Notes under the pieces: generated by a model
Database searches by the model: none
What the model was told of the DNA's origin: nothing
Seen by the model: the letters and a program-made list of their open reading frames with translations, nothing else
Sequence record: PZ256263.1
From: a phage
Direction: 5' to 3' (one strand)
DNA: 64,000 nt
Shown here: positions 17,265 through 55,180 of the stretch, piece after piece
Layout of the letters: the number at the start of each line of letters is the position of its first letter
How positions within the stretch are numbered: position 1 is the first letter of the stretch
Program-made: the position numbers and the translations under genes

Positions 17265-17273
17265 AAATGTATA
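17265..17273 (+). promoter_or_regulatory. near-match (AAATGTATA) to the recurring TAATGTATA motif
   Basis: In the 72-nt gap upstream of ORF 17313; one mismatch to the motif found at 21746, 28763, 38595(-) and 55172(-). Confidence 0.3.
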
Positions 17274-17312
17274 TAGAGTACAATAAGAATTTGTATTTTA
17301 CAGGAGAGAGTT

Positions 17313-17639
17313 ATGTTAGATTTGAGTAAAGTGGCCCCGCCCACTGAAGAGATTACAAAATCCAAGGTGATGCAACAGTTTTATCATCGTGATATGCTTG
17401 GTCGCTTTATCAAGAATCGTGATGTTGTTGCTTGGTCTATTGGTAATCAGGGATATCTGTTGAAGGTTCTTCAGGTTACAGGTTCAACTGCTAAGCGGGT
17501 TAAGGTGTATGACCCTGAAATGGGGCGTTCTAAGTCAGTAGACCCACAGAACTGCATCGTAATTACCCAGCAGGTGATAGCAAATCTAGAAAGAAATGTA
17601 GCAAACTCTACTGAGTTAGAAGGAGAAGACCCTAAGTGA
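17313..17639 (+). CDS. hypothetical protein
   Basis: Track ORF 108 aa; SD AGGAGAGAG upstream. Confidence 0.5.
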   Translation: MLDLSKVAPPTEEITKSKVMQQFYHRDMLGRFIKNRDVVAWSIGNQGYLLKVLQVTGSTAKRVKVYDPEMGRSKSVDPQNCIVITQQVIANLERNVANSTELEGEDPK

Positions 17640-18130
17640 TTCCAAAGGAATTGGAAGGGAAGATTGATGTAACAGAAGATGGTAGAGTATTTACTATAAA
17701 GAGTGGAAGGTTTTTAACCCTCCACACTAATGGTGCCTATTACAGAGTTACTATTTACTTTCCTGAAGGATTAAAGAATTTCTATGTCCACAGGCTGGTT
17801 GCTAGTAAGTACATACCGAACCCTGATAATCTTCCATGTGTCAACCATAAGGATGGCAATAAACTCAACAATCATAAAGATAATCTTGAATGGTGTACCC
17901 ACCGAGAAAACTCTCAACATGCATCATCATTAGGTCTGATGGTACAGAGGTTTGGAGAAGACAATCCACAGTCTAAACTTACTCTAGAAGATGTAGAGTA
18001 CTGTAGGAGAGTTTATATCCCTCGAGATAAAGAGTTTGGAGGCTCTGCCCTTGCAAGACGTTTTGGTGTCTCTCAGCAAGTGATATCAAAAGTTCTACTT
18101 AATCAAACTTGGAGGGAATATAATGCATAA
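17636..18130 (+). CDS. HNH homing endonuclease
   Basis: Track ORF 164 aa; CVNHKDGNKLNNHKDNLEWCTHRENSQHA (HNH core) plus C-terminal HTH-like segment. Confidence 0.7.
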   Translation: MIPKELEGKIDVTEDGRVFTIKSGRFLTLHTNGAYYRVTIYFPEGLKNFYVHRLVASKYIPNPDNLPCVNHKDGNKLNNHKDNLEWCTHRENSQHASSLGLMVQRFGEDNPQSKLTLEDVEYCRRVYIPRDKEFGGSALARRFGVSQQVISKVLLNQTWREYNA

Positions 18131-18686
18131 GAATGTCTTTGATTTACCTGAGATTGGTCGTGTCGAATACAATATGTTAGACCGATCTGAGCTTTCAATC
18201 TCTCGTCTTGAAACGATGCAGGGTATGATTAGCGGAAACAGCCTAGAACACATCCTGAGCTGCTTACAAGCTAACATGGAACTCTTGCATATCAAAGCTA
18301 AAAACTACCACTGGAACGTCTCTGGTGCAGGATTTCAGGGTGTTCATGGTATGTTTGATGAGCTGGAAGATTACGCACGACAGGTAGGAGATCGTATTGC
18401 TGAACGTATGCGTTACCACTGTGTTAAAGTGGATGCTACAGCAGCTAACTACCTCTCTCATGCTTGGTTCTCAGAGGGTAATGCTGATCTGGACATGGAC
18501 GGTATGCTCTCTGATATGTGCATGACCTTGATGTGTATTATTGAGAAGATGGATGAGTTTGATGGTGATTTAGCCACCTACCCTGTCGATCAGAGTATGC
18601 TTCAAGAAATTAATGAAGGTCTTGGCAAGTATTGCTACTTCGTCAAGAGCAACATGTCCCATTCAAGTGGTGACGTGTCTTACTAA
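18123..18686 (+). CDS. Dps/ferritin-like protein
   Basis: Track ORF 187 aa; LQANMELLHIKAKNYHWNVSGAGFQGVHGMFDE...DRIAERM parallels the Dps ferroxidase-site helices. Confidence 0.6.
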   Translation: MHKNVFDLPEIGRVEYNMLDRSELSISRLETMQGMISGNSLEHILSCLQANMELLHIKAKNYHWNVSGAGFQGVHGMFDELEDYARQVGDRIAERMRYHCVKVDATAANYLSHAWFSEGNADLDMDGMLSDMCMTLMCIIEKMDEFDGDLATYPVDQSMLQEINEGLGKYCYFVKSNMSHSSGDVSY

Positions 18687-54376: not shown

Positions 54377-54385
54377 ATTATCTCC

Positions 54386-55138
54386 TTATACACGAGAAGT
54401 ACGAATACCATAAATATCAGGCAAGCTGCTCTGAAGTCGAGTCATGTTATTCGGAATTGCGATAGGTGAACCTGAGTACTCTTGTTTCTTATTCTGTTCT
54501 ACCATTTCATCAAGGATAGCTTTTCCTAATGCTGACCATTTCTGAACACCATTATCATCTTGAACAAAGAGACAAGCATGACGTAGGGTGAAATACAGAA
54601 GAAGTTCTGGTGCTATAGTAAGAATAGTACTAGTATCTGTATCTTCATGGAATTCCGGTGGGTCTGCATAATAGCTAAGAATCACTGAGTTTTCTGCTGG
54701 AATCAAAGGGCTTCCATCATCAGGGTAGTACGGAGTATCTGCTTCGATGCTAGGGTAGAAAATGAAACGACTACCGAAACGAGCAAAGTTGACAGGTTGG
54801 TTATTCCAGTGAGATGGGTTAATTGTTCCATGCTGTCTACGATAGCTAATCTCTTCAGGAGAGGTTACTTGGAAGATTGTGCCATCTTTGGCTCTCATCA
54901 TCCATTGAGCTTCTAAGTAATCAGGAGGAATGTAAGCTACTCCATCTTTAATATCTAAATATACTTCTTTTTCCAGAGGAGGAATACGTAAGTTACGATA
55001 AATCTCTTTCTCTGCAAAGTTAATAAAGTTTGGAATTTGATTAACAAATTCGTCATCGTCCCTATCTGCCCAGAGGGCCACGGCCTTCTTTAGCCACCCA
55101 TAGGTATTGATGGGGTATTGAACATCTGGCATTGCCAT
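54386..55138 (-). CDS. virion protein (putative head-tail adaptor or tail tubular protein)
   Basis: Track ORF 250 aa; first gene after the capsid terminator, with own promoter motif and GGAGG. Confidence 0.5.
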   Translation of the reverse strand: MAMPDVQYPINTYGWLKKAVALWADRDDDEFVNQIPNFINFAEKEIYRNLRIPPLEKEVYLDIKDGVAYIPPDYLEAQWMMRAKDGTIFQVTSPEEISYRRQHGTINPSHWNNQPVNFARFGSRFIFYPSIEADTPYYPDDGSPLIPAENSVILSYYADPPEFHEDTDTSTILTIAPELLLYFTLRHACLFVQDDNGVQKWSALGKAILDEMVEQNKKQEYSGSPIAIPNNMTRLQSSLPDIYGIRTSRV

Positions 55139-55171
55139 AGGTTGTCCTCCTTGTTATATGTAGACAAAGAA

Positions 55172-55180
55172 TATACATTA
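55172..55180 (-). promoter_or_regulatory. TAATGTATA motif, candidate promoter downstream of the capsid terminator
   Basis: Minus strand reads gtgtgTAATGTATAtt, about 20 nt upstream of AGGAGG and ATG 55138. Confidence 0.5.

What the first reader, a model, noticed from the sequence alone, without database searches (positions are those of the whole stretch)
17265..55180. Phage-encoded sigma factor and a recurring TAATGTATA promoter-like motif on both strands
ORF 30590-31237 has sigma-70 family region-2-like and region-4-like segments. Exact TAATGTATA occurs at 21746-21754 (+), 28763-28771 (+), 38595-38603 (-) and 55172-55180 (-), each 20-46 nt upstream of a strong Shine-Dalgarno in an intergenic gap preceding a likely highly expressed gene (the SSB-like gene, the large ejection-protein gene, and the first gene after the capsid terminator). 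A near-match lies at 17265-17273. My recollection is that this motif is the phiEco32 gp36-dependent promoter element; I cannot verify that here. The track start ATG of the 1488-aa ORF at 38601 sits inside the motif, so the true start is more likely 38556.
Basis: partly seen in the sequence, partly recalled or inferred. Interest (0 to 1): 0.6.

Follow-up and report, generated by a model that had tools for sequence, protein, structure and literature searches.

The report
Known phiEco32 sigma promoters, plus one
The window is a close relative of coliphage phiEco32, and the repeated TAATGTATA motif is the already published promoter element read by the phage's own sigma factor gp36, so the finding is correct but not new; the one loose end is a seventh, conserved, opposite-strand copy that published lists omit.

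Summary

- **Identity of the window.** It is a Kuravirus about 96% identical to phiEco32.
- **The two proteins.** ORF 30593-31237 is gp36, matching 213 of 214 residues of PDB 9M7Y chain F. ORF 11091-11339 is its partner gp79, matching 82 of 82 residues.
- **The motif.** Exact TAATGTATA occurs five times against 0.69 expected by chance. The 8-mer AATGTATA occurs six times and never inside a gene.
- **Match to the literature.** Six window sites match, one for one, the six experimentally mapped gp36 promoters of phiEco32: P68 at 17265(+), P58 at 21746(+), P40 at 28763(+), P26 at 38595(-), P13 at 55172(-) and P6 at 62587(-). The consensus is tAATGTAtA, with the start site 6-8 nt downstream.

The fifth copy is not in the published lists I could read. 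It carries the same -35 element as P68 (TTGGTAGTAGATA, 11-nt spacer). Both elements are invariant in 18 of the 19 relatives examined (the 19th keeps the -10 element and a 2-mismatch -35), while the spacer varies. It points away from genes into a conserved non-coding block that begins with a hairpin showing compensatory changes. This candidate non-coding-RNA promoter is untested.

The parts
30593..31237 (+). Gene for the phage sigma factor, homologue of phiEco32 gp36. The ORF as listed starts one Met earlier, at 30590.
   Evidence: 213 of 214 residues identical to PDB 9M7Y chain F, 'RNA polymerase ECF sigma factor'; the only difference is V199M. Weak Pfam Sigma70_r2 hit. Corresponds to phiEco32 phi32_36.
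11091..11339 (+). Homologue of gp79, which inhibits sigma-70 holoenzyme and activates gp36 holoenzyme.
   Evidence: 82 of 82 residues identical to PDB 9M7Y chain G, gp79. Position matches phi32_79, next to the ATP-grasp gene.
30542..30571 (+). Sigma-70-type promoter (TGGACA-18-TATAAT) in front of the sigma gene.
   Evidence: Consensus scan, 11 of 12 matches. The SU10 paper describes the same promoter with an 18-nt spacer. Function is inferred.
17241..17273 (+). P68, a middle promoter: -35 element TTGGTAGTAGATA (17241-17253), 11-nt spacer, AAATGTATA (17265-17273). Predicted start about 17280.
   Evidence: Identical to phiEco32 P68, the promoter in the cryo-EM open complex. The bases -37G, -34A and -14A/-13A/-12T/-11G fall exactly where the paper reports them.
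21746..21754 (+). P58, a middle promoter, TAATGTATA, upstream of the gene 58 homologue 21791-22105.
   Evidence: Listed as P58 in the supplementary table of PMC8948821.
28763..28771 (+). P40, a middle promoter, TAATGTATA, upstream of the gene 40 homologue 28831-29577.
38595..38603 (-). P26, a late promoter, TAATGTATA, with TAAGACCTA at -38 to -30 (38618-38626).
   Evidence: In phiEco32, P26 is transcribed by gp36 holoenzyme and stimulated 4-fold by gp79.
34135..38556 (-). gp26 homologue with the corrected start (1473 aa). The ATG at 38601 lies inside the promoter and upstream of the predicted start site near 38588.
   Evidence: Sequence. phiEco32 gp26 spans 26061-30482, which is 1473 aa. PHROG match covers 1-1473 of 1473.
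55172..55180 (-). P13, a late promoter, TAATGTATA, with TAAGACCTA at -38 to -30 (55195-55203). It lies after the terminator that follows the head genes and upstream of the adaptor gene 54386-55138.
   Evidence: The downstream gene matches Pfam SU10_adaptor.
62587..62595 (-). P6, a late promoter, TAATGTAGA, directly abutting the AGGAG of gene 6 (62102-62575).
   Evidence: Listed as 'TAATGTAgA P6' and in SU10 Table S2.
28702..28734 (-). Candidate seventh gp36-type promoter ('Pas'): TTGGTAGTAGATA (28734-28722), 11-nt spacer, TAATGTATA (28710-28702). It is divergent from P40 and absent from the published lists.
   Evidence: In 18 of 19 relatives both elements are invariant, while the 11-nt spacer has at least 6 versions. 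The exception, SDYTW1, keeps TAATGTATA with a 2-mismatch -35 (TGGTAGTATATC). GGTAGTAGATA occurs only twice in the whole phiEco32 genome, at P68 and here.
28537..28695 (-). Putative non-coding transcript from Pas. It has a 5' hairpin starting at the predicted +1 (28695-28677), a conserved block, and a long hairpin (28603-28537) that on the + strand is followed by TTTTTAT.
   Evidence: Hairpin: 97.9% of cells paired against 21-56% in the slid controls, and 2 of 6 pairs show compensatory changes. The block and long hairpin are 91-100% identical to those of divergent relatives whose gp40 gene is only 82-83% identical. Fold z-score -2.8. No conserved ORF. No transcript has been demonstrated.

Best explanation
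The window comes from a phiEco32-like coliphage (Kuravirus). [quoted passage not shown]

The N-terminal, sigma-2-like domain of gp36 reads and melts the AATGTA core of the tAATGTAtA element at -14 to -9. The C-terminal, sigma-4-like domain touches the -35 region at -37 and -34. The small phage protein gp79 (11091-11339) displaces region 4 of host sigma-70, which shuts off host and early transcription, and it clamps the gp36 C-terminal domain, which stimulates these promoters.

The motif copies at 17265(+), 21746(+), 28763(+), 38595(-), 55172(-) and 62587(-) are the homologues of the six mapped phiEco32 promoters P68, P58, P40, P26, P13 and P6.

Shown here: the sequence identity of both proteins, and the position, enrichment and conservation of the motifs. 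Taken from the literature on phiEco32: that these elements are promoters, that they depend on gp36, and the structural mechanism. Inferred: that the same holds in this particular phage.
For: - The window is about 96% identical to phiEco32 and 98 other Gordonclarkvirinae records.
- gp36 is identical at 213 of 214 residues to the solved protein, and gp79 at 82 of 82.
- Exact 9-mer: 5 copies against 0.69 expected, with 0 of 100 shuffles reaching 5.
- All six AATGTATA copies lie outside genes.
- Published promoter lists match the window sites one for one, including the two variant spellings aAATGTATA (P68) and TAATGTAgA (P6).
- The sites are conserved at the same positions in phiEco32, SU7, KBNP1711 and ECBP2, which represent three genera. 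Two copies are missing from that scan: P58 in SU7 and P6 in KBNP1711.
- With the 9-mer placed at -15 to -7, P68 has G at -37, A at -34 and AATG at -14 to -11, exactly the bases the cryo-EM paper reports as contacted.
- All seven window promoters have A at -34.
- gp79 stimulation of P26 and P68 was shown in vitro.
Against: - Nothing was measured for this phage itself.
- Loose matches to the motif are not enriched, and the 6-mer core is common inside genes. The core alone therefore cannot define a promoter.
- Pfam does not recognise gp36 as a sigma factor above its threshold.
- The primary paper that mapped the promoters (Pavlova et al. 2012, PMC3275717) was not available, so its content is cited second-hand.
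Confidence: 0.93

Rival explanations
1. The motifs are read mainly by host sigma-70 holoenzyme as -10-like elements (TAATGT, TATAAT-like), not by the phage sigma factor.
For: TAATGT fits the TAnnnT pattern of a -10 hexamer. At P68 and Pas a TTGGTA lies 18 nt upstream. The SU10 authors suggested that middle genes might be expressed by both holoenzymes. The consensus scan flags ATGATA-16-TATAAT overlapping P40.
Against: Published in vitro transcription and the open-complex structure show direct, base-specific recognition by gp36. gp79, which is identical here, shuts off sigma-70 holoenzyme. The late promoters have no sigma-70-like -35 element. Sigma-70-type consensus hits are not enriched in the region (31 found, 38 expected).
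Confidence: 0.04
2. The recurrence is a by-product of AT-rich intergenic composition or of a short repeat spread by recombination, with no regulatory role.
For: The intergenic regions are AT-rich. One-mismatch matches occur at chance frequency.
Against: Dinucleotide-preserving shuffles never reach 5 exact copies. The flanks of the copies are unrelated, so they are not duplications. The copies are oriented with their downstream genes and conserved across three genera. Function was shown experimentally in phiEco32.
Confidence: 0.02
3. The extra copy at 28702-28710(-) is not a promoter for an RNA. It is a conserved DNA element, for example a second gp36-holoenzyme docking site that modulates the divergent promoter P40, or part of a replication origin or protein-binding region.
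For: Its -35 element lies only about 7 bp from the -35 region of P40. No gene lies downstream, and no intrinsic terminator was found on that strand. The lowest GC content of the window is at 27-29 kb. Most of the downstream block is invariant, which fits a DNA site as well as an RNA.
Against: In SDYTW1-type phages an insertion of about 130 bp separates it from P40, yet it stays joined to the leftward block. The hairpin that begins at the predicted +1 keeps its pairing through compensatory changes and has a G-U pair only on the minus strand; this pattern suggests a transcribed RNA, not a protein-binding site. The bipartite conservation with a free spacer is the signature of a promoter.
Confidence: 0.3

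Closest known systems
phiEco32 gp36/gp79 transcription system and its six middle/late promoters (P6, P13, P26, P40, P58, P68)
   Same: Near-identical sigma factor and identical gp79. Same 9-bp element with the same variant spellings, at the same six genome positions. Same sigma-70-type promoter in front of the sigma gene. Same gene order.
   Different: Essentially nothing. There is one residue change in gp36 (V199M), outside the reported DNA and RNAP contacts. In this phage a second AATGTA core (TAATGTACA, 21760) lies 5 nt after P58, where relatives have TAGTGTACA.
Salmonella phage 7-11 sigma factor gp47 and its late promoters (GTAAtg-16-aCTA)
   Same: A phage-encoded sigma factor directs late transcription from promoters at similar genome positions.
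   Different: The sigma factor is unrelated (about 15% identity), the promoter is bipartite and of different sequence, there is no gp79 homologue, and there is no middle class or host shut-off. tBLASTn with the window's sigma finds nothing convincing outside the phiEco32 group.
Phage T4 sigma appropriation (AsiA/MotA)
   Same: A small phage protein removes sigma region 4 from its normal place on RNA polymerase and redirects transcription to phage middle promoters. The authors of PMC12276001 draw this comparison themselves.
   Different: T4 remodels host sigma-70 and adds an activator. Here the host sigma factor is replaced by a phage sigma factor that gp79 stabilises.
Short phage antisense or origin-associated RNAs such as lambda OOP RNA or the promoter-primed T4 origins (comparison for the seventh site only; from my own knowledge, not tested)
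   Same: A small non-coding transcript would start from a phage promoter pointing against the flow of the neighbouring operon.
   Different: No sequence or Rfam similarity. No transcript, target or origin function has been shown here.

Membership tests
phiEco32 gp36-dependent promoters | Single conserved element tAATGTAtA | tested here: met
   Five exact copies plus AAATGTATA and TAATGTAGA. The spellings are identical to the published table.
phiEco32 gp36-dependent promoters | Located in non-coding DNA upstream of the homologues of genes 6, 13, 26, 40, 58 and 68, and co-oriented with them | tested here: met
   The seventh copy at 28702(-) does NOT meet this feature, because no gene lies downstream of it.
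phiEco32 gp36-dependent promoters | Cognate sigma factor gp36 and co-factor gp79 encoded by the same genome | tested here: met
   213 of 214 and 82 of 82 residues identical to the PDB 9M7Y chains.
phiEco32 gp36-dependent promoters | Contacted bases -14A, -13A, -12T, -11G, -37G and -34A, as in the P68 open complex | tested here: met
   All six are present in P68 and in Pas. The other promoters have the -10 bases and -34A, while -37 varies (A in P58, P26 and P13).
phiEco32 gp36-dependent promoters | Transcription start 6-8 nt downstream of the element; gp36-dependent in vitro; middle or late timing in vivo | not testable with these tools
   Requires 5'-end mapping or in vitro transcription. Known only for phiEco32.
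Sigma-70 family proteins (for ORF 30593-31237) | Recognisable region 2 and region 4 by sequence profile | tested here: inconclusive
   Pfam Sigma70_r2 scores 18.2 bits (E 0.0021) against a cut-off of 24 bits, and there is no region-4 hit.
Sigma-70 family proteins (for ORF 30593-31237) | Sigma-2-like and sigma-4-like folds bound to the clamp helices and the flap-tip helix of RNA polymerase | tested here: met
   Met by near-identity (213 of 214) to the protein whose cryo-EM structure shows exactly this. No structure was predicted here.
Structured non-coding RNA (for 28537-28695, minus strand) | Base pairs maintained by compensatory substitutions | tested here: inconclusive
   Met only for the 6-bp 5' hairpin: 2 pairs with double changes, 97.9% paired against 21-56% in the slid controls, and 0 of 500 shuffles reaching the observed score. 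The remaining 43 predicted pairs never show a change on both sides and are uninformative. There are only 8 distinct, related sequences.
Structured non-coding RNA (for 28537-28695, minus strand) | Membership of a described RNA family | tested here: not met
   No Rfam match at the gathering threshold or at E up to 1, and no tRNA or tmRNA.

The most novel reading that the evidence does not exclude
The published count of six gp36 promoters may be one short. Every phiEco32-group phage examined carries a seventh, fully consensus, P68-class promoter (window 28702-28734, minus strand). It fires against the direction of the middle operon and would make a conserved, hairpin-capped non-coding RNA of roughly 90-160 nt from the gene 41/gene 40 spacer.

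Such an RNA could act as an antisense or collision brake on the upstream early/middle operon, or as a primer or activator at a replication origin. It would have been missed because earlier searches scanned only the gene-sense strand of intergenic regions and placed primers upstream of genes.
Probability: 0.5. Interest if true: 0.45.

Novelty: already known. Interest (0 to 1): 0.2.

Why it matters
The finding as given matters only for annotation. It lets one label the sigma gene, the gp79 gene and six promoters, and correct the start of the 1473-aa gene in this genome by direct transfer from phiEco32.

The seventh, opposite-strand site, if confirmed, would add a non-coding RNA or a regulatory or origin element to a phage whose transcription programme is regarded as solved. 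It would also give the new gp36-gp79 structure a second natural promoter carrying the full TTGGTAGTAGATA upstream element.

Tried and rejected
- **Primary papers.** Pavlova et al. 2012 and Savalia et al. 2008 are not held. Their content was taken from later papers by the same and other groups.
- **RNA family and tRNA searches.** Rfam on the whole window and a sensitive search on 28400-28850 found nothing. The tRNA scan also found nothing.
- **Source or target of the putative RNA.** There is no match in 5,426 E. coli genomes. Complementarity elsewhere in the window is at chance level only.
- **More diverse relatives.** Scans of IMG/VR and of metagenome contigs for the bipartite pattern returned only a handful of loci, mostly the same isolates. 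The covariation test therefore stays small.
- **Replication origin from GC skew.** The skew simply follows transcription direction and turns at about 33.9 kb. The only feature near 28.6 kb is a local GC minimum, which is not decisive.
- **Small ORFs in the putative transcript.** A 21-aa TTG ORF is broken by a 1-nt deletion in SU7-type phages. A 22-aa GTG ORF loses its start in Paul-type phages. Coding was rejected.
- **TAAGACCTA as a general element.** It is shared at -38 to -30 by P26 and P13 only, and otherwise occurs at chance frequency.
- **Other near-matches.** TAAGACCTA-TAATGTTTA at 30509-30526 and TAATGTACA at 45060 lie inside genes and were not pursued as promoters.
- **Gene labels.** Pfam and PHROGs could not confirm 'SSB-like' or 'ejection protein'.
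Full report
**What the window is.** A 12-kb stretch around the finding matches 99 phage records. Ninety of them cover at least 80% of the query, nearly all are Escherichia phages, and phiEco32 itself matches at 95.7% identity in reverse orientation. The window's + strand is therefore the phiEco32 - strand. The phage belongs to the Kuravirus group of the Gordonclarkvirinae.

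**Checking the observation.** Exact TAATGTATA occurs five times: 21746(+), 28702(-), 28763(+), 38595(-) and 55172(-). Dinucleotide-preserving shuffles give 0.69 on average, and none of 100 reached five.

Allowing one mismatch gives 20 hits against 18.2 expected, so loose matches carry no signal.

The 8-mer AATGTATA occurs six times, always outside genes. The one 'edge' case is the artefactual ATG of the 1488-aa ORF. Only about 7% of the window is non-coding. The bare 6-mer AATGTA is mostly inside genes, 32 of 43 copies.

The four listed copies lie 19-45 nt upstream of AAGGAG or AAGGAA (sequence).

**The proteins.** ORF 30590-31237 begins with two methionines. From the second (30593) it is identical at 213 of 214 residues to chain F of PDB 9M7Y, phiEco32 gp36. 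The single change, V199M, is not among the DNA- or polymerase-contacting residues named in the structure paper. Pfam alone gives only a sub-threshold Sigma70_r2 hit and no region 4. The 'sigma-like' reading therefore rests on the solved structure and not on profile searches.

ORF 11091-11339 is identical at 82 of 82 residues to gp79, chain G of the same entry. The sigma gene has its own sigma-70-type promoter, TGGACA-18-TATAAT at 30542-30571, as described for the sister phage SU10.

**What the literature says.**
- Six phi32_gp36-dependent promoters were mapped experimentally upstream of phiEco32 genes 6, 13, 26, 40, 58 and 68. They share the single element tAATGTAtA, and transcription starts 6-8 bp downstream (PMC8948821 and PMC4331800, citing Pavlova et al. 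2012).
- The supplementary table of PMC8948821 spells them TAATGTAgA (P6), TAATGTATA (P13, P26, P40, P58) and aAATGTATA (P68). SU10 Table S2 gives the same six with flanking sequence.
- The window has exactly these spellings at the homologous places: 62587(-), 55172(-), 38595(-), 28763(+), 21746(+) and 17265(+).
- The 2025 cryo-EM study (PMC12276001) solved the open complex of RNA polymerase, gp36, gp79 and P68. The gp36 N-terminal domain reads -14A, -13A, -12T and -11G. The C-terminal domain contacts -37G and -34A. gp79 displaces sigma-70 region 4 and stabilises the gp36 C-terminal domain. It stimulates P26 four-fold and P68 three-fold.

When I place the 9-mer at -15 to -7, the window's P68 has G at -37, A at -34 and AATG at -14 to -11. 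My register therefore agrees with the structure. All seven window sites have A at -34.

**Conservation.** Most of the six published sites are present at collinear positions in phiEco32, SU7 (Suseptimavirus), KBNP1711 (Nieuwekanaalvirus) and ECBP2. Two copies are missing from that scan: P58 in SU7 and P6 in KBNP1711.

The late promoters P26 and P13 share TAAGACCTA at -38 to -30, and this stays fixed while the sequence further upstream of P26 changes. P68 carries TTGGTAGTAGATA at -39 to -27.

**The start codon.** The ATG at 38601 is bases 3-5 of the P26 motif and lies upstream of the predicted start site near 38588. The in-frame ATG at 38556 has AAGGAG 5 nt upstream and gives 1473 aa. This equals phiEco32 gp26 (26061-30482) and the full length of its PHROG profile.

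**Verdict on the finding.** Observation confirmed and interpretation supported, but already known in detail, including at atomic resolution. The mechanism in this phage is inferred by near-identity and was not measured.

**The extra site.** The fifth exact copy, 28702-28710(-), lies in the 306-bp spacer between the small gene 41 homologue (28417-28524) and gene 40. It is back-to-back with P40 and points leftwards, where there is no gene.

- It is not in any promoter list I could read.
- One earlier computational study states that it searched only the gene-sense strand of intergenic regions. The experimental approach used primers placed relative to genes.
- The site has the same upstream element as P68, TTGGTAGTAGATA, with the same 11-nt spacer. 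GGTAGTAGATA occurs only twice in the whole 77.5-kb phiEco32 genome, at P68 and here.
- Outside the two elements the P68 and Pas sequences are unrelated, so this is not a duplication.
- In 18 of 19 relatives, both TGGTAGTAGATA and TAATGTATA are invariant, while the spacer has at least six versions, always 11 nt long.
- Against SU7, KBNP1711, phiEco32 and Bas88, the -35 element is 100% identical, the spacer 18-55% and the -10 region 83-89%. This is the pattern expected of a selected bipartite promoter.
- One lineage (SDYTW1 type) has an insertion of about 130 bp between this element and P40. There the -35 element has two mismatches (TGGTAGTATATC), but the element remains attached to the leftward sequence.

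**What would be transcribed.** With +1 seven nucleotides after the motif (about 28695), the RNA would begin with a hairpin.

- The hairpin exists in five sequence versions, all of which pair: window AGAGUUA/UAACUCU, SU7 AUAGCU/AGCUAU, phiEco32 AUAGCU/AGUUAU, ECBP2 AUAGUU/AACUAU and KBNP1711 AUAGA/UCUAU.
- On eight distinct sequences, 97.9% of cells pair against 21-56% when the partners are slid. Two of six pairs show compensatory changes. One pair changes from G-C to G-U, which is acceptable only on the minus strand. No shuffle of 500 reaches the observed covariation score. The sample is small and the sequences are related, so this is suggestive and not proof.
- The hairpin sequence itself is only 42-58% identical between the window and the relatives compared. 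The following block (28609-28675) is 91-98% identical and the long hairpin (28537-28608) 92-100%. The neighbouring gp40 gene is 82-83% identical in the three divergent relatives (SU7, KBNP1711, Bas88) and 96% in phiEco32.
- The remaining predicted pairs never show a change on both sides and say nothing about structure.
- The 172-nt stretch folds at -50 kcal/mol, z = -2.8.
- On the + strand the long hairpin is followed by an invariant TTTTTAT. It probably terminates rightward transcripts before P40. On the minus strand it lacks a U-tract, so the 3' end of the putative RNA is unknown.
- The short ORFs in the region are not conserved.
- A subgroup of phages (ECBP2, MN05, SDYTW1 and one metagenome contig) has replaced the middle of the block with unrelated sequence while keeping the promoter, the 5' hairpin and the distal part.

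**What led nowhere.**
- There is no Rfam family, tRNA, E. coli homologue or convincing complementary target in the window.
- GC skew follows transcription and turns at about 33.9 kb. The 27-29 kb region has the lowest GC content of the window (0.358), which is a weak hint at best of an unwinding region.

**Assessment of the extra site.** I estimate about a two-in-three chance that it is a working gp36 promoter, and about one in two that it yields a discrete functional non-coding RNA. Its role is open. Candidates are an antisense or collision brake on the upstream operon, an origin primer or activator, or a modulator of P40. It needs 5'-end mapping and in vitro transcription.

**Scores.** The finding as submitted is a correct rediscovery of known biology, so its interest is low. 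The seventh site is a modest, testable addition to a well-studied system.

Noticed in passing
window 28537-28734 (- strand): A seventh, fully consensus gp36-type promoter (TTGGTAGTAGATA, 11-nt spacer, TAATGTATA) lies divergent from P40. No gene lies downstream of it. Instead there is a conserved non-coding block that starts with a covarying hairpin. The site is absent from the published promoter lists I could read. Both elements are invariant in 18 of 19 relatives; SDYTW1 keeps the -10 element with a 2-mismatch -35.
   Followed up: yes
window 38618-38626 (-) and 55195-55203 (-): The two late promoters P26 and P13 share TAAGACCTA at exactly -38 to -30. It is conserved in SU7, KBNP1711 and ECBP2 while the sequence upstream of P26 diverges. 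This is a possible late-class upstream element, distinct from the TTGGTAGTAGATA of P68 and Pas. P6 lacks it.
   Followed up: partly
window 62575-62595 (-): The P6 motif TAATGTAGA directly abuts the AGGAG of gene 6. A start 7 nt downstream (about 62580) would give a 5-nt leader without the Shine-Dalgarno sequence, that is, a nearly leaderless mRNA from this promoter.
   Followed up: no
window 21760-21768 (+): A second AATGTA core (TAATGTACA) lies 5 nt after the P58 motif in this phage. phiEco32, KBNP1711 and ECBP2 have TAGTGTACA there, so a single G-to-A change created a tandem core.
   Followed up: partly
window 28537-28608: A long imperfect hairpin is followed on the + strand by an invariant TTTTTATCTC. 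It is a likely terminator of rightward transcription just before P40. The simple terminator scan does not find it, and the relatives inspected do not annotate it.
   Followed up: partly
window 27001-29000: This stretch has the lowest GC content of the window (0.358 against 0.424 overall), and the GC skew flattens locally. It coincides with the gene 41/gene 40 spacer. No origin of replication was mentioned in the papers on this phage group that I read.
   Followed up: partly
L004 (ECBP2), L013 (MN05), L010 (SDYTW1), L027; equivalent to window 28620-28675: A subgroup of relatives replaces about 45 nt of the conserved spacer block with an unrelated segment of about 70 nt. SDYTW1-type phages also carry an insertion of about 130 bp between the two divergent promoters. 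The spacer is therefore modular.
   Followed up: partly
window 30509-30526 (+): TAAGACCTA is immediately followed by TAATGTTTA inside the macro-domain gene, about 65 nt upstream of the sigma gene. The same arrangement occurs in phiEco32 (34894, - strand). It was not examined further.
   Followed up: no
window 54386-55138 (-): The first gene downstream of P13 matches Pfam SU10_adaptor (E 2.5e-29), so it encodes the portal-tail adaptor protein.
   Followed up: yes
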